Sequence record: LC680885.1
Direction: 5' to 3' (one strand)
Source: Staphylococcus phage S6
DNA: 64,000 nucleotides
Part shown: piece after piece, positions 28,818-51,071 of the stretch
How the letters are laid out: each line of letters begins with the position of its first letter
Numbering within the stretch: position 1 is the stretch's first letter
Position numbers and translations under genes: made by a program
Notes under the pieces: generated by a model
What the model was told of the DNA's origin: nothing
Seen by the model: only the letters and a program-made list of their open reading frames with translations
The model's database searches: none

Positions 28818-30752
28818 ATGTCTAATCAAGATAATAAATATGAACGTAAAAGAGCTATAACAGGATATTTAGAAAATTTAATCAAATTAATTAAAATAAG
28901 AAAACCTGATATTGATAATGAAAAGTTAATTAATACTTGTAGAGAGTATATTAAAAAACATGTAGATCCAGCTTTAATAGAAATATCTGGACAAAAAATG
29001 AATGTGGATACAACTTTAAGACAAATTATAGATAATAATTTAATTGTAACTGGTTCTGGTTCTATTTATCAGCCTCAATCACAAAGAAAAAATTTAAATG
29101 CAGACATGTTAAAAGACTTTATAGATTCTCGTAAAGTAGCTAAACATAATATGTTTATATATAAAGGTAAAGATGATGTTTTACATGATAAATATATGAA
29201 CGAACAAAAAACAATTAAGATCTTGGCTAACAGTTATTACGGTGCTATGATTCAAAAGAATAGTACATTCTATGATGCTAATTCAGGTCCAGCAACTACA
29301 TATAGTGGTGTTGATATTGTAACTACTTCAGCAATAGCTTTAGAAAGATTTATAGGTGGAAAAATATTCTTTATGAAAATTGATGAAATATATCATTATA
29401 TATTAAGAATAATCAATGAAGAATATAAAGATCATGATATTAAAATAAAAACAATTCCAACTGATATGGAAATTTTAGAAGGTTTAGTTTCTAATGTTGA
29501 AGAATCTTTTAGCGAAGAAGAATATCTTAAATTAGAAGAAGTATTTAGTAAATTAAGTCAAGAAGATAAAAATAAGGTATATTTCAAAAATAACTTATTT
29601 GGTTTAATTGATCATACTGATATATTTGAGAATAAAATTAGTAAAATGACTGGTAGAGAAGATTTCTTAGATCCGAACGAACCACCTGAAGATATGATTC
29701 CATTATTAGATGAATTATTTGAAATATTAAAAGATTGGGTTATATACAACTATCAAGATTATAATAGAATGTATAGAATGAATTACAAGAAACGTAGAAG
29801 TGTTCTCACAATTGACACAGATTCAAATTTCGTTCACTTAGATCCATTATACGAAAAAATGAAATCATTAAAACCTGAAGATTTTCCTTTAGCAGAAAAT
29901 GGTTTAGAAGATAAATTAGAAGAACGTGTAGGTAATATATCTATTATTAACTATCAAATAACTAAATTATTAGAATTATCTTACTATGGATTCTGTAAAG
30001 ATGTAGGATTAGAAGAAGAACATTTAGGTTTAATATCAATGAAAAATGAATTTTTACTTGATAAACAATTAACAACAGATAAAAAGAAAACTTATGCATC
30101 ATCAGTAATTCAACAAGAAGGTAATTTAATTCAACCTCCAGATTTAGATGTTAAAGGTATGGCTATTAGAAAAGTTAACACTAATAAACGTATTAGAGAA
30201 TTATTTACTGAAATATTACAAAAAGATATTTTAGAAAATAAAACTGGTGTAGATCGTATTAAGATAATACGTAAATTTAAAGATATTGAAGAAATGATTA
30301 AGAAATCATTAGATAATGGAGAAATTGAATTCTTAAAACCGTTTAAAGCTAATAATGCTGAAGTGTATAAAGATCCTTATTCTCAAATGGCTTATAGAGC
30401 TGCTTTAGCATGGAATATAATGTTCCCAGAAAAGGAAATAGCACTACCTGCTAAGATATTAGCAGTTAAATTAAATATTAGTACATTTGGAGATATTAAG
30501 AATAAGATAACTGATGAAAATACTTTAAATAGATTTAGAGAAGTATTTAAGAATGAAAGTTTAGTTAAAAATGGTTTAAATGTAATTGCAGTTGAAGGTA
30601 ATACAATTCCTGAAGAGTTTAGACCTTTTATTGACTATGATAGTATGATTGAAGATCATATTAAACCAGGTAAAGATATTATTGAATCTATAGGAGTTAG
30701 AGTATTGGAATCTTCAAATAGCTCATTTGTATCTAATATGATTAAATTCTAA
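28818..30752 (+). CDS. Family B DNA polymerase, C-terminal half (palm motifs B and C, KxY, thumb) encoded as a separate gene
   Basis: Motif B 'KILANSYYGAM' (K-x3-NSxYG). Motif C 'LTIDTDSNFVHL' (DTDS). 'TDKKKTYASSV' (KKRY-like). AAGGAGATG RBS. No exonuclease or motif A in this ORF. Confidence 0.75.
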   Translation: MSNQDNKYERKRAITGYLENLIKLIKIRKPDIDNEKLINTCREYIKKHVDPALIEISGQKMNVDTTLRQIIDNNLIVTGSGSIYQPQSQRKNLNADMLKDFIDSRKVAKHNMFIYKGKDDVLHDKYMNEQKTIKILANSYYGAMIQKNSTFYDANSGPATTYSGVDIVTTSAIALERFIGGKIFFMKIDEIYHYILRIINEEYKDHDIKIKTIPTDMEILEGLVSNVEESFSEEEYLKLEEVFSKLSQEDKNKVYFKNNLFGLIDHTDIFENKISKMTGREDFLDPNEPPEDMIPLLDELFEILKDWVIYNYQDYNRMYRMNYKKRRSVLTIDTDSNFVHLDPLYEKMKSLKPEDFPLAENGLEDKLEERVGNISIINYQITKLLELSYYGFCKDVGLEEEHLGLISMKNEFLLDKQLTTDKKKTYASSVIQQEGNLIQPPDLDVKGMAIRKVNTNKRIRELFTEILQKDILENKTGVDRIKIIRKFKDIEEMIKKSLDNGEIEFLKPFKANNAEVYKDPYSQMAYRAALAWNIMFPEKEIALPAKILAVKLNISTFGDIKNKITDENTLNRFREVFKNESLVKNGLNVIAVEGNTIPEEFRPFIDYDSMIEDHIKPGKDIIESIGVRVLESSNSSFVSNMIKF

Positions 30753-32221: not shown

Positions 32222-33733
32222 ATGAAAATAGATATGATCAACGTTGATCAAATTATTACAGCCTATGAAGCTAAAGAAGTTACCAATCCTATTTTCTTTG
32301 ATTCAGGAACTTTACCTAAAGAAGACGGTTTATTCTCATATGAAATATTTGGTTTAATAGGTACTGATGAAAGAAAGAACAATGTGGGGTGGATTAATTT
32401 AGGTGGTAAATACTTAAATCCTGTAGCGTATAAAGCTATGAAAGAATTAGATAAGAATATAGATTTATGTATTCAAGGATCTGATTACTTTAAAATTGAA
32501 AAAGGACAATTAGTTCCAGATGAAAATGGTGAAACTGGATTAAATTTCCTATACGATAATTATGAAAATCTTAAATTTAGAAAAAATGATTCTCGTATCC
32601 GAAATGAAAAAATTGATATGCTTAAAAATACTCCTAAAGATAGAATATTTACAGATAAATGGCTTGTAATACCTGCTTTCTATCGTGACTTTAACCCTAA
32701 TGAAACTTCAGGAGAAATTCAAGATACTGAAGAAATAAATGATATGTATGCGAGTATTTTAAGATCTGTAGATTCAATTAGTTTTAACTCATTTGATTTT
32801 GTAGCTAATACGACTAAATATAATATTCAAAATAAATTATTTGAAATATACGTTAAATTAACTTCAGGTGAACTATCAGGTAAAACTGGTATGATGCAAA
32901 GAAATATTTTAGGTAAGACAGTAGATAATAGTACTCGTTCAGTTATTTCATCACCTAAAATCAATTCAAATAAATGGAATGAAATGCAAATTGAATTCGG
33001 TCAATTAGGTGTTCCATTAACTCAATTAGTAACATTGTTCTTACCTTTCTTTAGTAAATATATTATAGACTTTATTGAAATTCATAAAGATGCTTTCCAA
33101 ACTGCTACTGGAACTGATGAAAAGGAATTAACATTAGAAGAAGTATATGAACAATTTGATGATAAATCTATTAAGAATATGTTAGAATACTTTATTAAAG
33201 ACCCTAATGAAAGATTTAGTCCTATATATGTAAATGATAGACAAGGTAAACGTCATAAAGTTAAATTATTTGAAAATACTTTAGGTAGAACTTTTACTGT
33301 AATTGATTTACTTTATATAGCTGCTACAGAAATATGTGAAGATAAGTATGTGGTTTATTCAAGATATCCGATTGAAAATTTCTTGAATGTGGCTCCTGCT
33401 AAAATTAAAATACTAACTACAGTTGATACAATTCCAGAAATTACTTTAGATGATATTGTACTTAAAGATTATCCTAAAGTTGTTCATGAATATCCTGTTG
33501 ATGAAGATGTATTTATAGATACTGCTATTATACACAACAGTTATGCCGGAGCACTTGGTGCAGATTTTGACGGTGATATGATCTCTATTAGATCTTTATG
33601 GACAGTTGAAGCTAATAAAGAAGCTAATAAACTTCTTAATAAGAAAACTAACTATCTAAACTACACTGGTAATTCAGTACGTAATTTGGGTAACGAATCG
33701 GTACAAGCTTTATATTCATTAACTAAAGAATAA
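32222..33733 (+). CDS. Multisubunit RNA polymerase beta-prime-like subunit, N-terminal fragment (catalytic NADFDGD region)
   Basis: 'KEDGLFSYEIFGL' aligns to the beta-prime N-terminus 'ERDGLFCARIFGP'. 'LVIPAFYRDFNP...EINDMYASILR' aligns to 'LPVLPPDLRPL..DLNDLYRRVI'. 'HNSYAGALGADFDGDMISI' aligns to 'AAYNADFDGDQMAVH', and 'NESVQALYSLT' to 'QDVVLGLYYMT'. No zinc-finger Cys. The ORF ends before the bridge helix. Confidence 0.7.
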   Translation: MKIDMINVDQIITAYEAKEVTNPIFFDSGTLPKEDGLFSYEIFGLIGTDERKNNVGWINLGGKYLNPVAYKAMKELDKNIDLCIQGSDYFKIEKGQLVPDENGETGLNFLYDNYENLKFRKNDSRIRNEKIDMLKNTPKDRIFTDKWLVIPAFYRDFNPNETSGEIQDTEEINDMYASILRSVDSISFNSFDFVANTTKYNIQNKLFEIYVKLTSGELSGKTGMMQRNILGKTVDNSTRSVISSPKINSNKWNEMQIEFGQLGVPLTQLVTLFLPFFSKYIIDFIEIHKDAFQTATGTDEKELTLEEVYEQFDDKSIKNMLEYFIKDPNERFSPIYVNDRQGKRHKVKLFENTLGRTFTVIDLLYIAATEICEDKYVVYSRYPIENFLNVAPAKIKILTTVDTIPEITLDDIVLKDYPKVVHEYPVDEDVFIDTAIIHNSYAGALGADFDGDMISIRSLWTVEANKEANKLLNKKTNYLNYTGNSVRNLGNESVQALYSLTKE

Positions 33734-34334: not shown

Positions 34335-34817
34335 ATGATATATTACAAAAATAAAGTAAATGGTGAAATATACGAAGTTAATGATATTCATAGAAAAGAT
34401 GATGCATTTTATTATGTGTTTGGTAATGAATTTAAAAAAGAAAGAATAGGATTATATGAATCAGTGGGTAAAAAAATTGATTTATTTGATAAAGATAAAG
34501 GACATAAAGAATTAAACTTCCAATTAAATTATGACTCATCTAGATTATTTTTAGTTACACATATGAAATATGATAATAATAATCCTTTTGCACCTAAAGC
34601 AGTAGATTTAAAGAATCAAAATTTTGTCGCATCCGATTCTTCAGAAGATCTTTACTATATATTATATAAAAGAATGTGTAATGCAATAGATATACCTTTA
34701 TTAGATTATAATGTATTATTAAAAGAATTTAATTTTGATAATGAAGATATATTTAAAATAATATCAGAAGATTGTAAAGAAGTAAAAGATTTTAAAATTA
34801 GAAATCTTTTTAAATAA
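34335..34817 (+). CDS. paralog-family protein, subfamily C (tail ..KEVKDFKIRNLFK); paralog of 35551-36036
   Basis: 160 aa. The first ~35 aa 'MIYYKNKVNGEIYEVNDIHRKDDAFYYVFGNEFKKE' and the last ~22 aa are nearly identical to the 35551 gene at both DNA and protein level, while the middle has diverged. Confidence 0.6.
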   Translation: MIYYKNKVNGEIYEVNDIHRKDDAFYYVFGNEFKKERIGLYESVGKKIDLFDKDKGHKELNFQLNYDSSRLFLVTHMKYDNNNPFAPKAVDLKNQNFVASDSSEDLYYILYKRMCNAIDIPLLDYNVLLKEFNFDNEDIFKIISEDCKEVKDFKIRNLFK

Positions 34818-35534: not shown

Positions 35535-35550
35535 GGAAGTGTAAATGGAT

Positions 35551-36036
35551 ATGATATATTACAAAAATAAAGTAAATGGTGAAATATATGAAGTTAATAA
35601 TATTCATAGAAAAGATGATGCATTTTATTATGTATTCAATAATGAATTTAAAAAAGAGAATTCGTCTTTTTATAAATCTTATGGTAAAAAGATTGATTTA
35701 TATGATGAAGACGTAGGAATTATAAAATTGGAGTTTTTCTTAATTTATGATTTTATTAATCTTCATTTAACTACACACTTTTCTTGGGATTTTAATAATA
35801 TTCCTTTTATACCTAAAAATATAGAATTAACAAATCAAAATTTTGTCATATCAGACTCTTCAATTGATCTTTATTATTTATTCTATAAAAGAATATGTGA
35901 TGTGATAGATATAAATATGGCACATTATAATATTCCATTAGGAAAATTTAATTTTGATAATGGAGATATATTTGAAATAATATCAGAAGATTGCAAAGAA
36001 GTAAAAGATCTTAAAGTTAGAAATCATTTTAGATAA
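35551..36036 (+). CDS. paralog-family protein, subfamily C (tail ..KEVKDLKVRNHFR)
   Basis: ATG at 35551 with AAGGAAG 10 nt upstream (track start 35545 is too close to the RBS). Paralog of 34335-34817. Confidence 0.6.
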   Translation: MIYYKNKVNGEIYEVNNIHRKDDAFYYVFNNEFKKENSSFYKSYGKKIDLYDEDVGIIKLEFFLIYDFINLHLTTHFSWDFNNIPFIPKNIELTNQNFVISDSSIDLYYLFYKRICDVIDINMAHYNIPLGKFNFDNGDIFEIISEDCKEVKDLKVRNHFR

Positions 36037-36228: not shown

Positions 36229-36882
36229 ATGTTTAATCACAATATCTTACTATATAAACCTATTAGCATTGATTATAATGATTTTATTGAGTTAAACAAA
36301 GAAAAATATAAAAATGATAGAGAATATATTAAAATGATAAATGTATTTAACTTAATGGAACTGTTAAAAATAGACTCTTTTAAAGATAAAACTTTCTTTG
36401 AAACTGAATGTAAATTAAAATTAAGAGGTTATGATGAATATAAAAATATAAAAGTGGTTTACAATCAATCATTAGACAGTGATCCAATATTCTCTAATTT
36501 AAAAAACTTTAATGCAGAATTAGATATTATAAGTAAAGAAAGAGATAATACTTATATGACTGAAGAATTATTATATGAATACAATATGATGAAAATGAGC
36601 ACATGTATAAATGATAAAGCTAACACTATTACAATTAAAATAAAAAATTTCATTAATTCAAATAAAGAAAATTTTAATAACGATTTTGAATTCCTTATTA
36701 AAGAATTTGAAAATAATTTATTAAAGAATTTAACAGACCTCCATAAATATGAAGACTTACAACTTCTAATTAATAGTGAATATCACAGTTTAAAAGATAT
36801 TAGTGTATATAATGAAAAAATATTTAGACCTGCTACTGATAAAGAGTTTAAGAATTATTTAGTTAAAAAAGGATTTAGATGA
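36229..36882 (+). CDS. paralog-family protein (tail ..TDKEFKNYLVKKGFR)
   Basis: 217 aa. Family tail. AAGGAG RBS. Confidence 0.55.
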   Translation: MFNHNILLYKPISIDYNDFIELNKEKYKNDREYIKMINVFNLMELLKIDSFKDKTFFETECKLKLRGYDEYKNIKVVYNQSLDSDPIFSNLKNFNAELDIISKERDNTYMTEELLYEYNMMKMSTCINDKANTITIKIKNFINSNKENFNNDFEFLIKEFENNLLKNLTDLHKYEDLQLLINSEYHSLKDISVYNEKIFRPATDKEFKNYLVKKGFR

Positions 36883-36891
36883 AAATATGTA

Positions 36892-36917
36892 TTAAATATA
36901 TATTATAAAAATGAGAT
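36892..36917 (+). promoter_or_regulatory. Conserved promoter-like motif copy 5 ('ttaaatatatattataaaaatgagat') followed by hairpin 36913-36943
   Basis: Exact consensus. A 13-bp hairpin 'gagataatgaatt..aattcattatctc' overlaps its 3' end. Confidence 0.45.
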
Positions 36918-36975
36918 AATGAATTAATATAATTCATTATCTCTATATTAATTTAATTAGGAGAGTGAAAAAGAT

Positions 36976-37584
36976 ATGGATTTAAAAGAGAATAAATTTT
37001 ATTATAATAAAGATATTAATGAGCTTTTTATAATTGGTAAGGATGAAAGTGATATTAACGATAAGATAAATAAATTCTATTATAAAAAATTATTAGAAAA
37101 AAATTTAGATTATCATGGTTTAATTAATAATCTTTATTATAATAGAAATATAAATTTTGATTTAATGGATGATGACGATATATATTTTAGTAATATGTAT
37201 AATGGAATTAGAGAATATATTAAGGTGAGTTATGTAGAATTTTCATGTACAAATTTTGAAGATAATGAAGTAATATTACAGTTAGATACTTTTATTGATA
37301 AAAGCAATGATAAAAATCTTTTAGAAGTTCATAAAGATTCGCATGGTGTTACCATAACAATGGTAAAAGGTTTTTATGAAAAAGATCTTATAAATTATAA
37401 TGAATACAAAAATATTTTAGACAAATTATCTGATCTGTTTGACACAATGCTTAAAGAAGAAAATGATGGAAATATTAAAATCTTTATAAATGATATTGAT
37501 ATATTTGAACCTTATGCATATTTTAGAGAGTTAGAAGACGAAAGAGGAATTAAAAATATTTTGGTTAAGAAAAATTTTATATAA
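36976..37584 (+). CDS. paralog-family protein (tail ..ELEDERGIKNILVKKNFI)
   Basis: 202 aa. AGGAGAG RBS. Confidence 0.55.
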   Translation: MDLKENKFYYNKDINELFIIGKDESDINDKINKFYYKKLLEKNLDYHGLINNLYYNRNINFDLMDDDDIYFSNMYNGIREYIKVSYVEFSCTNFEDNEVILQLDTFIDKSNDKNLLEVHKDSHGVTITMVKGFYEKDLINYNEYKNILDKLSDLFDTMLKEENDGNIKIFINDIDIFEPYAYFRELEDERGIKNILVKKNFI

Positions 37585-37598
37585 AGGAGATAGATATA

Positions 37599-38219
37599 AT
37601 GGATGTAAATGAATATATAAATAATCATGATTTTTATAGAGTTGGGAATGACGGTCAAGTATTTGTATTTAATAAAGATATATCAAAAGATGAATTAAAT
37701 TCTAAAATATTTACTAAATTATTTTCATGCGAAAATATAGGAATTATACTGTCTGAATGTGGTCATTATATAATAGATGGAAATAATATATTCTTAAGAA
37801 ATAATGATAAAATATTATTAGTCGAAAATATGACTATTGATATAAGTTTATTTAAAGATGATCTAATTGAATTAAATTTTATATTAAATATTGAATCTGA
37901 TCTTTATTCAAAAATTGGTCCTTTTGAAAAAGATAATCATGATCCTTTTTATTATTATAATACTATTATTCAAATAGAAAATAAAGATAACTTTCAACAT
38001 GAATTAATTTCTCATATAACAAATCATTTTAATAAAATGAGTGATGTTGATTTAATGCTTTTAACTACTAAAAATGAAATTAGATTTAATAAAGATTATA
38101 GTATTAATAAAAAATGTATTGATTTTAAATGTAATTTTAATGAAATTTATAAAATATTTAATAAATTAGAAGATGAAAAAGAAATTAAGAAATATATAGT
38201 AAGAGAAAATTTTAAATAA
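37599..38219 (+). CDS. paralog-family protein (tail ..LEDEKEIKKYIVRENFK)
   Basis: 206 aa. AAGGAG RBS. Confidence 0.55.
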   Translation: MDVNEYINNHDFYRVGNDGQVFVFNKDISKDELNSKIFTKLFSCENIGIILSECGHYIIDGNNIFLRNNDKILLVENMTIDISLFKDDLIELNFILNIESDLYSKIGPFEKDNHDPFYYYNTIIQIENKDNFQHELISHITNHFNKMSDVDLMLLTTKNEIRFNKDYSINKKCIDFKCNFNEIYKIFNKLEDEKEIKKYIVRENFK

Positions 38220-38232
38220 GGATAGAATAAAT

Positions 38233-38796
38233 ATGAATTTAGATAATATTGTAATATTAAAAAAGAAAAATGATGGTAAATTTGACAATAACAAATTTAT
38301 AGAATTTAATCATAATAATATTAATAATGATGAAATATTAAGTCTTTCTTTAATTACTCTATATACGAGCGTGTATGCATTTTATATAAAAAGTGATGTA
38401 AAACCTGACAATTTTGTTAGTTATTTAGCTAATTTTTATTTAGAAATAGATGGGCATTTAAAAGGACCTTTAAATATAACACATGATGAAAATAATAGAA
38501 TACTTATAATTTATAAAGGAAGACTACCACAAGATATTTTTGAGATTAGAGAATTTAACGTAAATACTAAATTATATGCATACTTAATTAAAGGTGGTAA
38601 TTACAATACGGTAGAAGATGATCTAATCAAATCAATAATCAATGGTTCAGAGTATATAATAAATAATGAAAGAATTAAGCCAAAAATTATTATTAATGGA
38701 GCATATAAGGATATTACAAATGTATTAAATTATTTTGAAAAACTTACTGATGAAAAAGAAATTAAAAAATATCTAATTAAAAAAAATTTTAAGTAG
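38233..38796 (+). CDS. paralog-family protein (tail ..LTDEKEIKKYLIKKNFK)
   Basis: 187 aa. AAGGA RBS. Confidence 0.55.
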   Translation: MNLDNIVILKKKNDGKFDNNKFIEFNHNNINNDEILSLSLITLYTSVYAFYIKSDVKPDNFVSYLANFYLEIDGHLKGPLNITHDENNRILIIYKGRLPQDIFEIREFNVNTKLYAYLIKGGNYNTVEDDLIKSIINGSEYIINNERIKPKIIINGAYKDITNVLNYFEKLTDEKEIKKYLIKKNFK

Positions 38797-38813
38797 AATA
38801 AGGAGGATTAAAT

Positions 38814-39437
38814 TTGGATAAGTCATTATATGTATCGGATATATTCGATGAGAAAGTTATAGGAAGAAAGGATCTTAATAAAGATGAACTTTTTGATTTG
38901 TCATTTAATACAATTTTAAATAATTCTGCTGACACTAGATTTAATAAAGAAGGAATTAGGTTAATGTTATCATTTTCAAAAGGATTAATTTTAAAATTTG
39001 ATTATGCAGACAAATATTTTTATGTGAAAGATTTTATATTTTTAATAGAAAAAGTTGATGGTAACTATGAATTTAATTTTACATTAAGTATTCCAGAATT
39101 TGCAGACAGTGAAATTGAAATTGAATTAGGAATTTTTGAATCGGATAAAGGTCATAGAGAATTTTATTTTAATGATTTTTCTTATTATAAAGAAGGAAAA
39201 ACTTTATTAGAAAGAGCTAAAGAATATTTAATATACGATATTTTTAATAATTATGGTGTTATTTTTAGTATTTTTTCATTAAAAGACAAAAATAGAATTT
39301 TAACAGACGATAATTTTATCATAGATAATAATGATATAGATGAATTTTATAGTCTAAAAAATATAGATAACGTATTTAGAGAAGTAACAAACGAAAAAGA
39401 AATTAAAGAATACTTAGTTCAGAAAGGATTTAGATAA
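38814..39437 (+). CDS. paralog-family protein (tail ..VTNEKEIKEYLVQKGFR)
   Basis: 207 aa. TTG start after AAGGAGG. Its final codons (AAAGGA) serve as the RBS of the next gene. Confidence 0.5.
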   Translation: MDKSLYVSDIFDEKVIGRKDLNKDELFDLSFNTILNNSADTRFNKEGIRLMLSFSKGLILKFDYADKYFYVKDFIFLIEKVDGNYEFNFTLSIPEFADSEIEIELGIFESDKGHREFYFNDFSYYKEGKTLLERAKEYLIYDIFNNYGVIFSIFSLKDKNRILTDDNFIIDNNDIDEFYSLKNIDNVFREVTNEKEIKEYLVQKGFR

Positions 39438-39438
39438 A

Positions 39439-40050
39439 ATGAAAATAGACTTAGAATCTTATGAATACTATTACCATGATGAAGAAAAAATATTAGTTCC
39501 AGTATCATTAGATATGAAGAAAGAAAATGCAAATGAGTTAATGACGTTTGAATATTATAAGAAAGTTTTTAAAAGTTTTAATCATAATATATTTCATAAA
39601 AGAATTCATGATGATAATATACTATTTAGTACTCGATTAAATAAAGTGATTAACAAAAGTACTGGTATATCAATACCTACTTATGATTTATATATACATT
39701 TTGAAATAGATAACTCATTAAATATTATTTCCTTAGAATTAAGTTTTTCAATGGATACAAATCACTTTGATTTATTTAGAACATTCTATAAAGATAAAAT
39801 AGAAGTTATAAATTTTTCAAAGACAGATTTTTTAAAATATAATCAAAATGTAGATAATTTAGAAGATAAAATGGCATGTCTATTAGCTAAATTATTCTTT
39901 GATATGCACAATGATGAAAATGAAGATATTGAAATATATGTAGACAATTTTTACCATGAATCACTAGACATAGCTAAGCCATATAAATATTTTAGATTGA
40001 TGGGAGAAAAAGAAATAAAAAATCTAGCAACTAAAAAAACTTTTAAATAA
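39439..40050 (+). CDS. paralog-family protein (tail ..GEKEIKNLATKKTFK)
   Basis: 203 aa. ATG lies 10 nt after the AAAGGA formed by the K-G codons of the upstream gene. Confidence 0.55.
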   Translation: MKIDLESYEYYYHDEEKILVPVSLDMKKENANELMTFEYYKKVFKSFNHNIFHKRIHDDNILFSTRLNKVINKSTGISIPTYDLYIHFEIDNSLNIISLELSFSMDTNHFDLFRTFYKDKIEVINFSKTDFLKYNQNVDNLEDKMACLLAKLFFDMHNDENEDIEIYVDNFYHESLDIAKPYKYFRLMGEKEIKNLATKKTFK

Positions 40051-41970: not shown

Positions 41971-42747
41971 ATGGAGAAAATTAAAAAATACTACATTAGT
42001 AAATCGAAAGATGAATTTATGGAATTAACTTTCAATGAAAATGAAACACTCTATTTTGACTTTAAGTGGAAAGTTTTAAGTGAGCTATTCACTACAATGC
42101 AAATAAATTATAATAAGAGATTTCTTATATCTCATGAAGAACATGATGACAATGGTTTAGTTGGTCTTAGAATAAATTTCAATGCTTTTCCCACAGTTAA
42201 ATACAAATATAAGGGTAAGAAAAATAAAATGGAACTTCTTATATACGCTATAATACGCTTTAGTCTAAATGAAGAAGACGATAATTATATTAAGTTTAAA
42301 GCTGTTCCTTTATATAATAATAGTGAAATAGGGAAAAGATTATTTAGTAAAAGATCTGGTATATTTGATGATAATGGTGAACTAAATTTACCGCATGACT
42401 TTAATGAAGAAGTTATGATTCGTTTTTTAAAATATTTTAAAAGTCATATACAAAAAGGTAAAAGACCTTTAGAACTCAAGGATGATTTACACAAGATGTT
42501 TACTACTACAAATAAATTAATTTTTGAATTACTAGATCAGATACAAGATCATTCAGATATTGAATTTCTTATTGCACCCGATTGGGATTTTAGTGGTAAA
42601 GAAATGGAAAAAGAAAAAGGTTTTAGTTTTGAAAAAGAATATGATAAGTATATCAGTTTAAATGATTTCGATGTTGATGCATATTTTAGAGAAATAACTG
42701 ATGAGAAAGAGATTAAAAAATTTAAAGTTAAGAAAGGATTTTCCTAA
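41971..42747 (+). CDS. paralog-family protein (tail ..EITDEKEIKKFKVKKGFS)
   Basis: 258 aa. Also has the internal 'QIQDHSDIEFLIAPDW' block shared with the 44346 member ('QIRDHFDIEFFVSDG'). Confidence 0.6.
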   Translation: MEKIKKYYISKSKDEFMELTFNENETLYFDFKWKVLSELFTTMQINYNKRFLISHEEHDDNGLVGLRINFNAFPTVKYKYKGKKNKMELLIYAIIRFSLNEEDDNYIKFKAVPLYNNSEIGKRLFSKRSGIFDDNGELNLPHDFNEEVMIRFLKYFKSHIQKGKRPLELKDDLHKMFTTTNKLIFELLDQIQDHSDIEFLIAPDWDFSGKEMEKEKGFSFEKEYDKYISLNDFDVDAYFREITDEKEIKKFKVKKGFS

Positions 42748-42748
42748 T

Positions 42749-43567
42749 ATGAAAAATAATACAAAATATTTTATAGATAAAAAAAGAGATGAATTAATTG
42801 AAATTGATAAAGAATATCTTAATCGATATGAGTATATTGCACACGTATTAACTGTCATTGATATGAATAAGCTTTTATATATTGAAGATCATGCTAGATC
42901 CTTTATAAATGGTATTAATATTGAAGAAAATGATGTGGGAAATGGATTGACTTTTAATAATATAGAAATTCATAATAATATCCATTTCAAAAATATAAAT
43001 AGTAAAAATAATGCGTATAAAAATTTTAATACCGATTTTTATATAAACTTCTTTATTGATAGAATGGATAAAGTTAAAACTCAGAATTTTAAGTTAAAAT
43101 TTAATTTTTATAATTCAATATATAAAGAATATTTTAATAAAATTACCAATAATTTATTAAATGAAGATAATTTAGTCAATGAAGGAGTAAATAAAGAAAT
43201 AAGATCTCTTATGAATTTTGAATTATTTAAAAAAGAGTTATATAATACTAAATACAATAATAGTGAATATTTAAATCTTTTTGAAAATTCATCATATATG
43301 AAGGACAATGTTATTGGATTTATAAATAAATTTGAAGGATTATTTTCTAGTGTAATATACCAAAATAACCTTAGTGTATTAATGACTCTTTATGAAATAA
43401 AATACATGTATGAAGATGACATAGATTTTTATATTAATTTTTATAATGAAAATTATGGTTTAGTTAATATATTAGAATTAATCGAAAGTGATGAAAATGA
43501 TTTATTTAAAGAAATTAAAACAGAAAAAGAAATGAAAGCGTTTAAAGTTAGAAAAGGATTCAAATAA
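42749..43567 (+). CDS. paralog-family protein (tail ..EIKTEKEMKAFKVRKGFK)
   Basis: ATG at 42749 lies 2 nt after the upstream stop. The RBS AAAGGA is formed by the K-G-F codons of the upstream gene (track start 42701 is an internal overlap). Confidence 0.55.
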   Translation: MKNNTKYFIDKKRDELIEIDKEYLNRYEYIAHVLTVIDMNKLLYIEDHARSFINGINIEENDVGNGLTFNNIEIHNNIHFKNINSKNNAYKNFNTDFYINFFIDRMDKVKTQNFKLKFNFYNSIYKEYFNKITNNLLNEDNLVNEGVNKEIRSLMNFELFKKELYNTKYNNSEYLNLFENSSYMKDNVIGFINKFEGLFSSVIYQNNLSVLMTLYEIKYMYEDDIDFYINFYNENYGLVNILELIESDENDLFKEIKTEKEMKAFKVRKGFK

Positions 43568-43588
43568 TATAAAGAAAGGATTTTTGTA

Positions 43589-44329
43589 ATGGAATATAAT
43601 AATTACTATAGATATAAATTAGATGGAAAAATACTTCACTTTGATATGGATAGAACTGATTTACGTAGAGATAAATTGGCTGAAATATTTACTAAAGTTA
43701 AGATGGAATATATTTATAAAGATAAAAAAATGATTAAAAAAGCAAGAAACTTTATTTACCGATCTAATCTTTCTTTAGAGTATTCTCATTTTAAAGATAA
43801 AGTATTTGTAATCAAACAAATTTCTAAAATGCTAAGTAAAAACAATGTAAGGGATTTATTAATTTACGATACGGATCTTAGTTTAGAATTTAATTCTATT
43901 TTAGACGGTGGTATATTTAAAAAAGATTTTCCAGAAGGATCCTTTTATGAAAAAATAGAAAGTAATATGAATAGAAAATATTTAATTTTAAGTGATAATA
44001 TAAGACACACTAGTGAAAGTTTTGTTGATTTATATGATAAAGATTATATTTTAAATTTTGAAGAAGTAGAATTGCTAGTCAAAGAATTTAATAAAACTCT
44101 TTTAAATTATCTTATGGATTTAATGAGTTATGGAAATCTAGAATTAAAAGTTAGAAAATCGGAGTTAGCATATTTTATGACAGGAATATATACAAAAATG
44201 GAAGAAAACGAAGATAAGTTATTCCCTATATTTGATTATAAATTTTTACTTAATGAATCTGGATTATTTGAAGAGATTACAGATGAGAAAGTTATTAAAG
44301 AATATTTAGTGAAAAATAATTTTAAATAA
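43589..44329 (+). CDS. paralog-family protein (tail ..EEITDEKVIKEYLVKNNFK)
   Basis: 246 aa. Last ~80 nt are nearly identical at DNA level to the ends of the next two genes. Confidence 0.6.
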   Translation: MEYNNYYRYKLDGKILHFDMDRTDLRRDKLAEIFTKVKMEYIYKDKKMIKKARNFIYRSNLSLEYSHFKDKVFVIKQISKMLSKNNVRDLLIYDTDLSLEFNSILDGGIFKKDFPEGSFYEKIESNMNRKYLILSDNIRHTSESFVDLYDKDYILNFEEVELLVKEFNKTLLNYLMDLMSYGNLELKVRKSELAYFMTGIYTKMEENEDKLFPIFDYKFLLNESGLFEEITDEKVIKEYLVKNNFK

Positions 44330-44345
44330 AAAGGAGATCAATGTA

Positions 44346-45128
44346 ATGAGTATAAATAAAAGTCATAAAAAATATTTTTTGAGTAAAATGACAGATGATT
44401 TATTTGAAGTTACTAACTTATACAGATATAATATAAATGAAGATTATTTATATCTACCTCAATTACTTTCTAATTTACAAGTAAAAAGTAATGAAGAAAT
44501 AAATATACTTTCTGAAGAGATTGTTGGTAAAGATGATAATGGAGAGAATTTATGGTCAGGAACTATATCAGCTGGATATATTTTTCCAGTTATCAAATAT
44601 AATGTTAATAATAAAAAGACAACGAATATACTTATTATTGATTTTGATATTATTTTCAACGAATCAATAGAAAATGAAAACTATTTAAAAGTTAGAATTG
44701 AAAATCCATACTCTTCAGGTATAAATTCAATAATTTTTAATAGCGTTATTGGCAATATATTAGATGAATCCAATTCTTTAAAAGTACCTTTTAGATTTCA
44801 TATAAATAGCATGGAAGATTTAATATCAGATTTTAATAATGGTACAGAAAATGATTTTAGAAATAATAAAGATTTATACCAAATATTAGTTGAAGTAAAT
44901 AGTTCTATATTGGAAATTTTATCACAAATTAGAGATCATTTTGATATAGAATTCTTTGTATCAGATGGTTGTTTCTCGCACATACCAGAGAATGATAAAA
45001 GAGATAATGATGATATAGATGATAAATACTATAATTTATTTGACGAGTATAAAATGTCTGGAGTATTTGAAGAGATTACAGATGAAAAGATTATTAAAAA
45101 ATATTTAGTGAAAAATAATTTTAAATAA
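44346..45128 (+). CDS. paralog-family protein (tail ..EEITDEKIIKKYLVKNNFK)
   Basis: 260 aa. N-terminal 'KKYFLSKMTDDLFEV' is shared with the 45144 gene ('KKYFLCKINDELFEV'). Confidence 0.6.
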   Translation: MSINKSHKKYFLSKMTDDLFEVTNLYRYNINEDYLYLPQLLSNLQVKSNEEINILSEEIVGKDDNGENLWSGTISAGYIFPVIKYNVNNKKTTNILIIDFDIIFNESIENENYLKVRIENPYSSGINSIIFNSVIGNILDESNSLKVPFRFHINSMEDLISDFNNGTENDFRNNKDLYQILVEVNSSILEILSQIRDHFDIEFFVSDGCFSHIPENDKRDNDDIDDKYYNLFDEYKMSGVFEEITDEKIIKKYLVKNNFK

Positions 45129-45143
45129 AAGGAGATTAATATA

Positions 45144-45941
45144 ATGGGTGTAATTAAAAGTAATAAAAAATACTTCCTATGTAAAATAAATGATGAATTA
45201 TTTGAAGTTGATAAGAACAATAGAGATTCATTTTTATATGACTATTTACCTTTAATAATAGCTGAAAAAATAATTAATTCAACTGAAAAAGATTCATATG
45301 AAACTAGTGCATTGGATGTTTATTATAAAAAAGAAGATAACATAATTGAAGGGAATTTAAAATTTTTAGCAAGATGTTTACTTCCCGTCCTGTATAATTT
45401 CAATAATAAAAATTCATTTAAAACAGTTATGACTATCGCAGATTTTAAATTTAAAAGAGATGCTAATAAATCTACTTTTAGTATAGATAAAAATAGTGTT
45501 AATGATAAAATACTATTTCAAATGAGACCTTTAGGAAATGAAATTGATGATATTTTATTTAATAGTATTATAAGTGACCTTTTAAATGAAAATGACGAAA
45601 TAGAAATGAAACAAATGTTATTAATTGGTAATTTTGAAAAATTGTTAAGTGAAATTGATAATCAAAATATAAAACATCATGATGATTTTAAAATTTTAAT
45701 CAAAGATATATTCAATATTTATCTTAATTTATTAAACTCATTAAGTCATCATTTTAATATTGAATTTTTCTTTTCTGAATCTTCTTTTCTAGACATGTTA
45801 AATATTTATGATTATGATATTATTAATAATAAAGATAGTTATAAAATAAATATTTTTGAAGATGATTTAGATGGAATATTTGAAGAGATTACAGATGAAA
45901 AATTTGTTAGAGAATATTTAGTGAAAAATAATTTCAAATAA
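45144..45941 (+). CDS. paralog-family protein (tail ..EEITDEKFVREYLVKNNFK)
   Basis: 265 aa. AAGGAG RBS. Confidence 0.6.
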   Translation: MGVIKSNKKYFLCKINDELFEVDKNNRDSFLYDYLPLIIAEKIINSTEKDSYETSALDVYYKKEDNIIEGNLKFLARCLLPVLYNFNNKNSFKTVMTIADFKFKRDANKSTFSIDKNSVNDKILFQMRPLGNEIDDILFNSIISDLLNENDEIEMKQMLLIGNFEKLLSEIDNQNIKHHDDFKILIKDIFNIYLNLLNSLSHHFNIEFFFSESSFLDMLNIYDYDIINNKDSYKINIFEDDLDGIFEEITDEKFVREYLVKNNFK

Positions 45942-49073: not shown

Positions 49074-49226
49074 ATGGATAAAAAGAAATTATGGATATTG
49101 ACAGGTATAACTTTTTTAACATCTCTCACAGTAAATTTCATTATTTTATATTATAAAGATAAATATAAAATGGATGATATTGATACAGCAGAAGATCCAT
49201 TTATGAAAGGTCCATTATTTATATAA
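49074..49226 (+). CDS. small predicted membrane protein (50 aa), not in the supplied track
   Basis: ATG at 49074. Hydrophobic stretch 'LWILTGITFLTSLTVNFIILYY'. In-frame stop at 49224-49226. Followed by the hairpin terminator at 49236-49278. Confidence 0.35.
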   Translation: MDKKKLWILTGITFLTSLTVNFIILYYKDKYKMDDIDTAEDPFMKGPLFI

Positions 49227-49235
49227 TTTAAATAT

Positions 49236-49278
49236 TGCCAAACATTCTTTAAATAGAGTGTTTGGCATTTTATATTTT
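49236..49278 (+). terminator. Rho-independent terminator ('tgccaaaca..tgtttggca' + T-run)
   Basis: 9-bp stem, 14-nt loop, followed by 'ttttatatttt'. Confidence 0.5.
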
Positions 49279-49349: not shown

Positions 49350-51071
49350 ATGGGTAGATTTATTAAATCAACATATTTAAATAAAAAAGAGACACATTCA
49401 GGAAAAGAAAAAGTAGTAATGGTAGTTAAAGAAGAAGACGGTAATAAAAAACATATGGAAATAACTGATCCAATGATGCATTATTATGTAACTAAAGATG
49501 AACATTGGTTACCACCTAATAAAATTGTAGGTTCTATTGAAAAAGATAAAGTAAGAACTGTTACTTGTAAGCATAAAGATATTATCAAATCAGTAGTTAA
49601 AGAAGCTGGTAATGCTCAAGATAAAGCAGAATATGATAGAATTATGAAATCAGGTAATTGGCAAGAATATAGAAAATTAAAAGATTTTCATTTATTAAAT
49701 AATGCTCATGGATCTGATATTAATATAGAAGATTATAATATTAATGAGTATATTAAAAAGAATTTAGATAGTAAAGTCGGTATAGATATATGTCTATTCG
49801 ATATTGAGGTTGATGGTTCTCAAGTAACAGGCTTCCCAGATCCTGAAAAGGCTGAAGCAGAGATAAATATTATAACTGTAGTGGATTGGAGTAAGAAAAA
49901 AGTATTAACATTCGCTCTTAAATATGACACTGATACTTATAGAGAAACTATGGAAGATCAGGATAAGTTAATTAAAGACTTAAATGAAATCTATAATAAT
50001 GAAAATAGTGAAATTGGTAAAGATTTAGGTTTAGAATTTGAAATATATGAATTAGATACAGAAATGCAAGTAATTAAATCTTTCTTATACTATATTAATG
50101 AAATTAGTAAACCTGATATATGTACAGCATGGAATCTAGATTATGACTTCCCTGCAATATTTGAACGTATTAGAGCTAATGGAGAAGATCCTGCAGATTA
50201 TTTCTGTTCTAAAGAATTTGAAGATAAGAAAGCATATTATAAATTAGATAAAAACGCTACAGATATGGCTAATAGATCTTCTACATTTGAGACTAATTCT
50301 TATACTAACTGGATTGACCAATTAGCTTTATATGCAAATATTAATAAACCTAATGGTGCTTTGGAATCAGTTAAGTTAAATGATATTGGAGAAAAAGAAG
50401 CGAGAGTTACTAAAGATGTTTATGAAGGTTCTATTTCTGATTTACATTTTAGAGATTATTACACATTTATACTTTATAATATTAAAGATACTGTATTAGC
50501 TGCATTAATTGAACATAACACTAATATGTTTGATTTATTATTCTCTATTGTAGATATGACTAGAACAAGACCTAGTAAAGCACTTAAGAAAACTATTTGT
50601 TTAAGAAATCGTAGTTCAGTATTCTTTGAAAATCAAGGATACGTATTAAGTAATAACCACTCAAAATTATTATCAGATCCGAATGCAGATAAAATTCGTG
50701 GTGGATTTGTAGCAGATATGATGTTAATTGAACGTAATGGTGATACATTAGTTAAAGGTAGAGATATTAGATCTAATAGATTATTTAGTAATGTTTGTGA
50801 CTTTGACTTGAGTGCTCTATATCCATCTATTATTAGAGCATATAATATAACACCTGAAGGACATGTGGGTAAAATGAATATTCTTGATAAAGATAGAATA
50901 ACAGTGCCTAAGTATGAGGAAGATAAAGATAACTATGATTTTAATACTGAATTCGTAAGTAAGTTTAACAGTCAAGATAGTGTTGCTTTTGCTCAAGAAT
51001 TTCATGGTTTACCTCCTCTTATTAAAGCATCTGATGACATTATTAAAGAATTAGAGGAGGAAATTGGTTAA
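49350..51071 (+). CDS. Family B DNA polymerase, N-terminal half (3'-5' exonuclease domain + palm motif A) encoded as a separate gene
   Basis: Exo I 'ICLFDIEVDG'. Exo II 'AWNLDYDFPAIF'. Exo III 'YTFILYNIKDTV'. Motif A 'DFDLSALYPSII'. The ORF ends about 75 aa after motif A, and no motif B or C follows it. The next ORF starts at an overlapping ATGA. Confidence 0.75.
   Translation: MGRFIKSTYLNKKETHSGKEKVVMVVKEEDGNKKHMEITDPMMHYYVTKDEHWLPPNKIVGSIEKDKVRTVTCKHKDIIKSVVKEAGNAQDKAEYDRIMKSGNWQEYRKLKDFHLLNNAHGSDINIEDYNINEYIKKNLDSKVGIDICLFDIEVDGSQVTGFPDPEKAEAEINIITVVDWSKKKVLTFALKYDTDTYRETMEDQDKLIKDLNEIYNNENSEIGKDLGLEFEIYELDTEMQVIKSFLYYINEISKPDICTAWNLDYDFPAIFERIRANGEDPADYFCSKEFEDKKAYYKLDKNATDMANRSSTFETNSYTNWIDQLALYANINKPNGALESVKLNDIGEKEARVTKDVYEGSISDLHFRDYYTFILYNIKDTVLAALIEHNTNMFDLLFSIVDMTRTRPSKALKKTICLRNRSSVFFENQGYVLSNNHSKLLSDPNADKIRGGFVADMMLIERNGDTLVKGRDIRSNRLFSNVCDFDLSALYPSIIRAYNITPEGHVGKMNILDKDRITVPKYEEDKDNYDFNTEFVSKFNSQDSVAFAQEFHGLPPLIKASDDIIKELEEEIG

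What the first reader, a model, noticed from the sequence alone, without database searches (positions are those of the whole stretch)
28818..30752. Family-B DNA polymerase is split into two non-adjacent genes in inverted order (C-terminal half here, N-terminal half 18.6 kb downstream)
This ORF carries motif B (KILANSYYG), motif C (DTDS) and a KxY motif, but no exonuclease or motif A. Gene 49350-51071 carries Exo I (FDIEVDG), Exo II (NLDYDFP), Exo III (YNIKD) and motif A (DLSALYPSII), then stops. Both are on the plus strand. The C-half gene lies upstream of the N-half gene. About 25 unrelated genes, including the whole paralog array, sit between them. Adjacent split gp43 genes and intron or intein interruptions are known in phages. 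A split between motifs A and B with the halves dispersed and reordered is unusual and implies assembly of the polymerase in trans. The paralog array looks like a large insertion within what may once have been a replication module.
Basis: partly seen in the sequence, partly recalled or inferred. Interest (0 to 1): 0.7.

Follow-up and report, generated by a model that had tools for sequence, protein, structure and literature searches.

The report
Two-gene DNA polymerase of jumbo phage
This Staphylococcus jumbo phage encodes its replicative family-B DNA polymerase as two separate proteins from genes 18.6 kb apart, which is real but is the normal, already annotated arrangement in the AR9/phiKZ-like jumbo phages.

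Summary
ORF 49350-51071 (573 aa) carries the N-terminal domain, Exo I-III and motif A. ORF 28818-30752 (644 aa) carries the fingers (motif B), motif C, KxY and the thumb. Both are intact, and their catalytic residues are invariant across the homologues aligned.

The window is a Staphylococcus jumbo phage (S6/DC4/MarsHill group, relatives of Bacillus phage AR9). The same two-gene layout occurs in nine independent Staphylococcus phage assemblies and in AR9, PBS1, BpSp, phiR1-37 and an EL-like phiKZ-type phage. It is annotated there as polymerase "subunits", and AR9 is annotated as "exonuclease + partial catalytic domain". So this is not a misassembly, a pseudogene pair or a new discovery.

The break lies after motif A, near RB69 residues 437-455, inside a clade-specific helical insert. 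There is no intein or intron. A 1224-aa fused homologue aligns with N+C with almost no gap at the junction.

The most likely mechanism is a non-covalent heterodimer with a composite palm. This is inferred, not shown.

The paralog arrays are specific to the Staphylococcus phages and did not cause the separation.

One detail departs from the literature. Motif A sits on the "exonuclease" chain in the EL-like phage too, which disagrees with the published assignment for phage EL.

The parts
49350..51071 (+). N-subunit gene (573 aa). It encodes the PolB N-terminal domain, the 3'-5' exonuclease, the first palm segment with motif A, and a conserved helical tail.
   Evidence: ORF, translation. PHROG 3011 E 3.6e-63. 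The family profile aligns to RB69 gp43 residues 87-436, E 2.5e-33. AF2 model has pLDDT 82.7, and its best Foldseek hits are RB69/T4 gp43, E 3e-18. The protein is 100% identical to a Staphylococcus phage S6 protein.
49797..49817 (+). Exo I motif FDIEVDG (residues 150-156)
   Evidence: D151, I152 and E153 are invariant in 28 homologues.
50133..50153 (+). Exo II motif NLDYDFP (residues 262-268)
   Evidence: N262 and D266 are invariant.
50475..50489 (+). Exo III motif YNIKD (residues 376-380)
   Evidence: Y376 and D380 are invariant.
50805..50834 (+). Motif A DLSALYPSII (residues 486-495). D486 corresponds to the RB69 D411 metal ligand and Y491 to the RB69 Y416 steric gate.
   Evidence: Alignment to RB69 residues 404-439. 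D484, D486, L490, Y491 and P492 are at least 90% conserved. pLDDT is below 50 when the N-half is modelled alone.
50877..51068 (+). N-subunit C-terminal tail (about residues 510-573). It is helical, has no counterpart in RB69, and is conserved across the family (consensus F.D.Y.S.D.I.FG....LP). It is the proposed first half of the inter-subunit helical module.
   Evidence: Conservation. Helices 523-572 in the model. The profile match to RB69 ends at residue 436. The tail is retained in the fused homologue P0211 and in the EL-like phage exo chain.
28818..30752 (+). C-subunit gene (644 aa). It encodes a helical head, a pre-finger beta-hairpin, the fingers with motif B, a clade-specific helical insert, the second palm segment with motif C and KxY, and the thumb.
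   Evidence: ORF, translation. PF20286 E 4.9e-53 and PF00136 E 7.7e-11. PHROG 2927 E 1.3e-96. AF2 model has pLDDT 80.2, and its best Foldseek hits are RB69/T4 gp43.
28818..29033 (+). C-subunit N-terminal head (residues 1-72). It has two long helices and a small hairpin and lies upstream of anything aligned to canonical PolB fingers. It is the proposed second half of the inter-subunit helical module.
   Evidence: Model elements H6-28, H34-48, E53-62 and H63-72. The archaeal PolB fingers (residue 448) align only from profile position 98 onward. There is no invariant acidic residue before R105.
29217..29243 (+). Motif B KILANSYYG (residues 134-142) in the fingers
   Evidence: K134, N138, Y141 and G142 are invariant. 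R105 and K109, the equivalents of RB69 R482 and K486, are also invariant.
29385..29777 (+). Clade-specific multi-helical insert (about residues 190-320) between the fingers/motif B region and the motif C hairpin
   Evidence: Helices 189-323 in the model. In archaeal PolB, motif C follows motif B by about 50 residues, whereas here it follows by about 190. The insert is described for this clade by Iyer et al. 2021.
29814..29825 (+). Motif C DTDS (residues 333-336)
   Evidence: D333, T334, D335 and S336 are invariant. pLDDT is below 60 when the C-half is modelled alone.
30084..30095 (+). KxY motif KKTY (residues 423-426)
   Evidence: K423, K424 and Y426 are invariant.
49236..49277 (+). Terminator-like hairpin with a T-run immediately upstream of the N-subunit gene. 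It implies that the gene starts its own transcription unit.
   Evidence: 13-bp stem, 2 such sites found against 0.3 expected. MarsHill has an annotated terminator at the equivalent place.

Best explanation
The two ORFs are the two subunits of one replicative family-B DNA polymerase. It is the two-chain enzyme typical of AR9-like and phiKZ-like jumbo phages.

The N-subunit supplies the N-terminal domain, the proofreading exonuclease and the first palm strand with the motif A aspartate. The C-subunit supplies the fingers (motif B), the motif C aspartates, KxY and the thumb. Each gene is translated separately, with its own Shine-Dalgarno site, ATG and stop codon. The N-subunit gene also follows a terminator-like hairpin.

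The proteins are proposed to associate non-covalently. Two contacts are proposed. One is between the helical tail of the N-subunit and the helical head of the C-subunit, which together make up a roughly 135-aa clade-specific insert. The other is completion of the palm beta-sheet, which would give a catalytic site built from both chains.

The fission is ancient. The break position is the same in the Staphylococcus, Bacillus and EL-like Pseudomonas phages. The positions of the genes have since drifted.

Shown here: the gene structure, the motif content, the conservation, the break position, and the absence of an intein or intron. Inferred: heterodimer formation and the composite active site.
For: - **Complementary motif content.** Catalytic residues are invariant in both families.
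- **The C-half has no motif A.** No conserved acidic residue precedes the fingers. The N-half keeps motif A, aligned to RB69 D411-S418.
- **Break position.** The N-half profile matches RB69 87-436. The C-half aligns to canonical PolB from the start of the fingers.
- **Behaviour of the isolated models.** The confidently folded parts are the exonuclease domain, the fingers and the thumb. The low-confidence parts are exactly the two palm pieces: N 447-509 including motif A, and C 310-340 including motif C.
- **A natural fusion.** P0211 is a single 1224-aa ORF on contig L003. It aligns end to end with N+C, with only a single-residue gap near the junction. Its nearest sampled relatives are split.
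- **The family is almost entirely split.** Of the best 150 representatives for the C-half, 149 are C-half-sized or shorter, out of 1248 hits. All of the best 120 N-half homologues are 710 aa or shorter.
- **Both halves co-occur** in every relative examined: nine Staphylococcus phages, AR9, PBS1, BpSp, phiR1-37, LPJP1 and the EL-like phage HHBS47_1.
- **Expression in AR9.** Both genes have annotated early promoters and fall in the same 'continuously expressed' replication class.
- **Translation signals.** Both genes have a Shine-Dalgarno site and a true stop codon.
Against: There is no direct evidence of physical association or of activity. I could not run a two-chain structure prediction. The attempts to build a concatenated alignment for one failed.

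Published analyses treat the N-half homologue as a stand-alone exonuclease that 'might associate'. One of them places both catalytic aspartates on the polymerase chain of phage EL.

Low pLDDT in the palm pieces could also reflect the shallow alignments used (14 and 28 sequences).
Confidence: 0.85

Rival explanations
1. There are two independent enzymes. The C-half is a self-sufficient polymerase that uses some other acidic residue in place of motif A. The N-half is only a free-standing 3'-5' proofreading exonuclease that may or may not dock onto it. This is the view implied for phiKZ-like phages in the literature.
For: Kazlauskas & Venclovas 2011 assign both metal-binding aspartates (D229 and D398) to the phage EL polymerase chain and call the other ORF an exonuclease. 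Iyer et al. 2021 describe a polymerase 'without a fused exonuclease'.
Against: In an EL-like phage, D229 lies after motif B, in an 11-residue segment that the Staphylococcus and metagenomic family members aligned with it lack. No acidic residue upstream of the fingers is conserved in the C-half family.

The 'exonuclease' chain keeps a canonical, conserved motif A and tail in both the Staphylococcus and the EL-like phages. Selection on DxxSLYP in a pure exonuclease would be unexplained. The AR9 annotators already call it a 'partial catalytic domain'.
Confidence: 0.08
2. The halves are joined covalently after expression. This could happen by protein trans-splicing with a split intein, as reported for the phage MIJ3 PolB and, from memory, for Nanoarchaeum equitans PolB. 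It could also happen by RNA trans-splicing of intron halves.
For: Relatives of this phage are rich in group I introns, homing endonucleases and an intein in gyrase A. Close relatives have introns or HNH genes inside both polymerase halves.
Against: There is no Hint/intein Pfam match even at E up to 1. The residues after motif A contain no Cys. The C-half head has no terminal His-Asn followed by Cys, Ser or Thr.

N+C aligns with the fused homologue with almost no gap at the junction, so there is no room for the roughly 130 or more residues of an intein. No Rfam family, including group I and II introns, reaches its threshold anywhere in the window. The N-half stop codon overlaps the next gene's ATG.
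Confidence: 0.02
3. The finding is an artefact or decay: a misassembly that separated one gene, or two dead fragments with a working full-length polB elsewhere in the genome.
For: None found.
Against: Nine independently sequenced Staphylococcus jumbo phages are collinear across the interval. The same order is found in AR9, PBS1 and BpSp. Each half has exactly one place in the 263-kb DC4 genome. The ORFs are intact, with invariant catalytic residues.
Confidence: 0.01

Closest known systems
[quoted passage not shown] The papers number them g132 and g152.
   Same: Both halves are orthologous (38% and 35% identity over 88-92%). The break is the same. The strand and order are the same, with the C-half upstream. 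The neighbours are the same: virion RNAP beta', then an SbcC-like 911-aa ATPase, then the N-half. In AR9 both are expressed in the same kinetic class.
   Different: The interval is about 15 kb in AR9 and 18.6 kb here. The extra length comes largely from paralog arrays specific to the Staphylococcus phages.
The divergent PolB of phiKZ-like phages with a separately encoded 'exonuclease' (Kazlauskas & Venclovas 2011; Iyer et al. 2021; Pfam PF20286)
   Same: It is the same protein family (PF20286, 180.8 bits). The two-chain organisation is the same. By my comparison with an EL-like phage, the break position is also the same.
   Different: The literature describes the split as exonuclease versus complete polymerase, with both catalytic Asp on the polymerase chain. 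Here motif A is clearly on the exonuclease chain. The Staphylococcus/AR9 branch also has much more canonical motifs (KILANSYYG, DTDS).
Split gp43 (43A/43B) of T4-related Aeromonas phages 44RR and 25 (Petrov et al. 2006, 2010). Recalled from memory; the papers are not held in the library.
   Same: A phage PolB is encoded as N-terminal and C-terminal cistrons that form a two-subunit enzyme. Homing endonucleases and introns are associated with the locus.
   Different: There the cistrons are adjacent and in N-to-C order, separated by a short untranslated spacer or a homing endonuclease gene. Here they are 18.6 kb apart with unrelated genes between. I could not verify the exact break position in 44RR.
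Archaeal split PolBs: Methanothermobacter thermautotrophicus PolB1 (non-adjacent genes) and Nanoarchaeum equitans PolB (split intein). Also the phage MIJ3 PolB with an intein (PMC6892783). The two archaeal cases are from memory.
   Same: A family-B polymerase is encoded by two separate genes, dispersed in the genome in the archaeal cases.
   Different: N. equitans and MIJ3 rejoin or interrupt the protein with an intein, and none is present here. As I recall, the M. thermautotrophicus break lies further towards the C-terminus. These lineages are unrelated.
Split beta/beta' subunits of the multisubunit RNA polymerases in the same jumbo phages
   Same: It is the same genomes and the same theme. 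Large nucleic-acid polymerases are encoded as several dispersed genes whose products assemble. One such gene (32222-33733) lies between the two DNA polymerase halves.
   Different: It is a different enzyme family. Assembly of the RNAPs has been shown experimentally, whereas assembly of the DNA polymerase has not.

Membership tests
Family B DNA polymerase (PolB, RB69/T4 gp43 type) | 3'-5' exonuclease motifs Exo I (DxE), Exo II (Nx2-3F/YD) and Exo III (Yx3D) | tested here: met
   N-half residues 150-156, 262-268 and 376-380. The key residues are invariant in 28 homologues.
Family B DNA polymerase (PolB, RB69/T4 gp43 type) | Polymerase motifs A (DxxSLYPS), B (KxxxNSxYG) and C (DTD), plus KxY | tested here: met
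   All are present and conserved. Motif A is on the N-half (486-495). Motifs B, C and KxY are on the C-half (134-142, 333-336, 423-426).
Family B DNA polymerase (PolB, RB69/T4 gp43 type) | PolB fold | tested here: met
   The best Foldseek hits for both AF2 models are RB69/T4 gp43. N-half: E 3.4e-18, about 450 columns. C-half: E 1.5e-7, about 530 columns.
Family B DNA polymerase (PolB, RB69/T4 gp43 type) | All domains on one polypeptide | tested here: not met
   There are two ORFs 18.6 kb apart, each with its own start and stop codon.
Jumbo-phage divergent PolB (Pfam PF20286 divDNApol; 'group 1' of Iyer et al. 2021) | Score above the curated Pfam cut-off | tested here: met
   180.8 bits against a cut-off of 25.7.
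Jumbo-phage divergent PolB (Pfam PF20286 divDNApol; 'group 1' of Iyer et al. 2021) | Long multi-helical insert before the motif C hairpin, with the exonuclease on a separate protein | tested here: met
   Helices fill about residues 190-320 between motifs B and C. The exonuclease lies on ORF 49350-51071. The feature is described.
AR9-type two-gene PolB (AR9 gp131 + gp151) | Orthologues of both genes, with the same break and conserved neighbourhood | tested here: met
   tblastn gives 38% identity over 92% and 35% over 88%. The order and strand are the same, and the vRNAP beta' and SbcC-like genes lie between.
AR9-type two-gene PolB (AR9 gp131 + gp151) | Co-expression of the two genes and formation of a heterodimer | not testable with these tools
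   AR9 transcriptomics places both genes in the 'continuously expressed' class. I found no biochemical study of the complex.
Split-intein (trans-spliced) PolB, as in N. equitans; intein-bearing PolB of phage MIJ3 | Intein/Hint blocks at the junction: a Cys or Ser at the start of the N-intein, and a C-intein ending in His-Asn followed by Cys, Ser or Thr | tested here: not met
   There is no Hint/intein Pfam hit at E up to 1. The junction sequences lack the required residues. The alignment with the fused homologue has almost no gap at the junction.
Adjacent split gp43A/gp43B of T4-related Aeromonas phages | Two adjacent cistrons in N-to-C order, separated only by a short spacer, a homing endonuclease gene or an intron | tested here: not met
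   The genes are 18,597 nt apart with 24 plus-strand ORFs between them, and the C-half comes first.
Intron-interrupted polymerase gene (group I intron with or without a homing endonuclease, as in close relatives) | Intron RNA structure between the exons, with the exons joined by splicing | tested here: not met
   Rfam gives 0 hits at gathering thresholds in the whole window. Both ORFs are uninterrupted here, unlike the MarsHill, Machias and PALS_2 copies.

The most novel reading that the evidence does not exclude
The whole AR9/phiKZ-type jumbo-phage PolB clade, with more than a thousand representative sequences, may be an obligate two-chain polymerase. Its palm would be split right after motif A, inside a clade-specific helical insert. 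The protein usually annotated as a stand-alone 'exonuclease' would then be indispensable for polymerisation because it carries the motif A metal ligand. The published placement of both catalytic aspartates on the phage EL 'polymerase' chain (D229) would be wrong. Rare fused relatives such as P0211 would offer a natural control.
Probability: 0.7. Interest if true: 0.45.

Novelty: already known. Interest (0 to 1): 0.3.

Why it matters
For annotation, the two genes should be named as the two subunits of one DNA polymerase. Several deposited relatives, including DC4 in GenBank, still call one or both 'hypothetical protein'.

For biology, an active site built from two separately encoded chains would be an unusual architecture for a replicative family-B polymerase. 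It has never been examined biochemically in these phages, although they include the model phages phiKZ and AR9/PBS1. If the motif A assignment made here is right, attempts to express the 'polymerase' chain alone would be expected to fail, for example when seeking a uracil-tolerant enzyme from these dU-DNA phages. The 'exonuclease' gene would also be essential for replication. As a discovery, however, the split itself is not new.

Tried and rejected
- **Single-chain N+C model.** I wanted to model N+C as one chain to see the interface. MAFFT alignments of the concatenated query with both homologue sets misplaced the distant C-half sequences (identity fell from 24-38% to 11-21%). I did not submit them and modelled the halves separately instead.
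- **Second profile search.** A search with the C-half alignment added almost no new homologues.
- **Residue ranges from Foldseek.** The Foldseek output gives no residue ranges. I took the break position from HMMER profile alignments to PDB sequences instead.
- **AR9/MarsHill early-promoter core TATATTAT.** It is not enriched in this AT-rich window (40 found, 35 expected). It has no exact copy in the intergenic DNA directly upstream of either gene (nearest is 49147-49154, upstream of the terminator-like hairpin). Promoter assignment is therefore left open.
- **Literature.** Searches for a biochemical study of the PBS2/AR9 polymerase and for the Petrov et al. papers found nothing held. Statements about those works are from memory.
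- **Hypotheses rejected.** The intein, trans-splicing, pseudogene and misassembly explanations were considered and rejected (see the rival explanations).
Full report
**What is in the sequence**

ORF 28818-30752 (+, 644 aa) and ORF 49350-51071 (+, 573 aa) exist as described.

The downstream ORF carries:
- Exo I, FDIEVDG, residues 150-156
- Exo II, NLDYDFP, residues 262-268
- Exo III, YNIKD, residues 376-380
- motif A, DLSALYPSII, residues 486-495

The upstream ORF carries:
- motif B, KILANSYYG, residues 134-142
- motif C, DTDS, residues 333-336
- KKTY, residues 423-426

The homology is unambiguous. The C-half hits Pfam PF20286 'divergent family B DNA polymerase' at E 4.9e-53 and PF00136 at E 7.7e-11. 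The two halves hit two different PHROG 'DNA polymerase' families, each about the length of one half. The N-half aligns to RB69 gp43 through the exonuclease and motif A.

Both genes have a Shine-Dalgarno sequence, an ATG and a true stop codon. A terminator-like hairpin sits just upstream of the N-half gene. The genes are 18,597 nt apart, with 24 plus-strand ORFs between them.

**Where the window comes from**

The N-half is 100% identical to a protein of Staphylococcus phage S6. Both halves are 99.8-100% identical to vB_SauM-UFV_DC4. These are the Staphylococcus jumbo phages (S6, PALS_2, MarsHill, Madawaska, Machias, SA1 and others). They are relatives of the Bacillus phages AR9/PBS1 and BpSp and of Yersinia phage phiR1-37. 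Uracil replaces thymine in the DNA of AR9 and S6.

**Not an artefact and not decay**

The 24-kb interval is collinear in nine independently sequenced Staphylococcus jumbo phages. Each half has a single place in the DC4 genome. All catalytic residues are invariant or nearly so across the homologues aligned.

**The split is the rule in this lineage**

All of the best 120 N-half homologues (of 357) are 435-710 aa long. An exhaustive HMMER search with the C-half finds 1248 representatives. Of the best 150, 149 are C-half-sized or shorter.

AR9 has the same two genes on one strand, with the C-half upstream, about 15 kb apart. The neighbours are the same: virion RNA polymerase beta' and an SbcC-like ATPase lie between them. 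[quoted passage not shown] AR9 transcriptomics places both genes in the same 'continuously expressed' replication class.

MarsHill, Madawaska and Machias annotate 'DNA polymerase catalytic subunit' and 'exonuclease subunit/domain protein'. The DC4 paper lists both genes as DNA polymerase.

For phiKZ-like phages, separate exonuclease and polymerase chains were described in 2011 and again in 2021. So the finding is already known in substance.

**Gene arrangement is plastic**

| Arrangement | Where |
|---|---|
| Same strand, C-half first, roughly 9-23 kb apart | Bacillus and Staphylococcus phages |
| Divergent, about 2 kb apart | phiR1-37 and metagenomic contig L004 |
| Opposite strands, about 37 kb apart | Listeria phage LPJP1 |
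| Fused into one 1224-aa ORF | Metagenomic contig L003 (P0211) |

The paralog arrays between the halves here (36229-40050 and 41971-45941) belong to a family found only in Staphylococcus jumbo phages. They lengthen the interval but did not create the separation. MarsHill's genome is reported as circularly permuted, and the genes are independent, so 'inverted order' carries no mechanistic weight.

**Where the break is**

The N-half family profile aligns to RB69 gp43 residues 87-436 and stops just after NISPET. The C-half profile aligns to archaeal PolBs from residue 448, the start of the fingers, at profile position 98. The pre-finger hairpin (LIVTGSGSIYQ) lies just before that.

The break therefore falls at the equivalent of RB69 residues ~437-455. 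RB69 has about 20 residues there. This clade instead has the N-half tail (~510-573) plus the C-half head (1-72), about 135 largely helical residues. Both segments are conserved across the family.

The concatenated N+C sequence aligns with the fused protein P0211 with only a single-residue gap near the junction. The two genes therefore represent a clean cut in the middle of this insert. P0211's closest sampled relatives (44% and 39% identity) are themselves split.

**How it most likely works**

The C-half has no conserved acidic residue ahead of the fingers. The N-half keeps DxxSLYP, aligned to RB69 D411-S418. The simplest reading is that the motif A metal ligand comes from the N-subunit and the motif C aspartates from the C-subunit. 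That makes an obligate heterodimer with a composite palm.

The isolated AF2 models fit this. The exonuclease, fingers and thumb fold confidently. The only long low-confidence internal stretches are the two palm fragments, N 447-509 and C 310-340. Both models match RB69/T4 gp43 best.

This step is inferred. I could not run a two-chain prediction, and I found no biochemical work on the complex.

**Covalent joining is unlikely**

There is no Hint/intein match at E up to 1, and the junction lacks the required intein residues. The alignment with the fused form leaves no room for an intein. No Rfam family, including group I and II introns, is detected anywhere in the window.

**A point that departs from the literature**

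Kazlauskas & Venclovas placed both catalytic aspartates of phage EL on the polymerase chain, as D229 and D398. I examined an EL-like phage, HHBS47_1.

- Its polymerase chain aligns end to end with the Staphylococcus C-half (A1 profile E 2e-55).
- D398 is the motif C aspartate.
- D229 lies after motif B, in an 11-residue segment that the Staphylococcus and metagenomic members aligned with it lack.
- Its 601-aa 'DNA polymerase/exonuclease' chain ends with a motif A-like SSDIDVEGAYPHATLALNV followed by the conserved tail. This stretch matches the N-half profile at positions 475-548 (E 1.1e-5).

So the break position, and motif A on the 'exonuclease' chain, appear to be shared across the clade. 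This refines what is known about a known system. It is not a new system.

**Verdict**

Novelty is 'already known' and interest is modest.

Noticed in passing
window 36229-40050 and 41971-45941: There are two tandem arrays of paralogous genes: six ORFs of about 190-217 aa and five of about 246-288 aa. Members of both arrays share a conserved C-terminal stretch of 20-30 aa. No Pfam match was found for the members tested. The family is found only in Staphylococcus jumbo phages and varies between isolates.
   Followed up: partly
window 34335-34817 and 35545-36036: These two ORFs are 67% identical over their full length (160 and 163 aa) and flank an unrelated 233-aa ORF. This looks like a recent local duplication. 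The one tested (34335-34817) has no Pfam match.
   Followed up: no
window 30714-30749 (C-half residues 632-644): The last residues of the C-subunit (...FVSNMIKF) are conserved across the family, with N640 nearly invariant and a consensus of SNiIKF. They are disordered in the model (pLDDT below 50). This pattern fits a short partner-binding peptide. Kazlauskas & Venclovas noted a possible clamp-binding motif at the C-terminus of phiKZ-like polymerases, although no clamp is known in these phages.
   Followed up: no
L003 18-3692 (Logan SRR23702512 contig, protein P0211): This is a single 1224-aa ORF that fuses the N- and C-halves in N-to-C order. It aligns along its whole length with the window's two proteins. 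It was the only fused form among the best 150 representatives. The contig is only 3.8 kb, so the genomic context is unknown.
   Followed up: partly
L009 46402-48207 (-) and 11411-13513 (+) (Pseudomonas phage HHBS47_1, EL-like): In this phiKZ-type phage, the canonical motif A (SSDIDVEGAYPH) is on the 'exonuclease' chain. Residue D229 of the polymerase chain was published as a catalytic aspartate for phage EL. It lies after motif B, in a segment missing from the Staphylococcus-phage and metagenomic C-halves aligned with it.
   Followed up: partly
L001 2062-4182 (MarsHill), plus hits H32, H37 and H38 (PALS_2, PB50, Machias): Close relatives have the polymerase halves further interrupted by introns and HNH homing-endonuclease genes. 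The N-half is in up to three pieces in Machias and PB50, and the C-half in two pieces in MarsHill. The window's copies are uninterrupted, and Rfam detects no intron in the window.
   Followed up: partly
window 32222-33733: [quoted passage not shown] Here it is a single 503-aa ORF. In MarsHill the orthologue is annotated as three exons with a homing endonuclease, and in AR9 as three exons with two endonuclease genes.
   Followed up: no
window 4627-10605 (-): This is a very large ORF (1992 aa) on the minus strand, in a region of higher GC content and opposite GC skew. I did not examine it.
   Followed up: no
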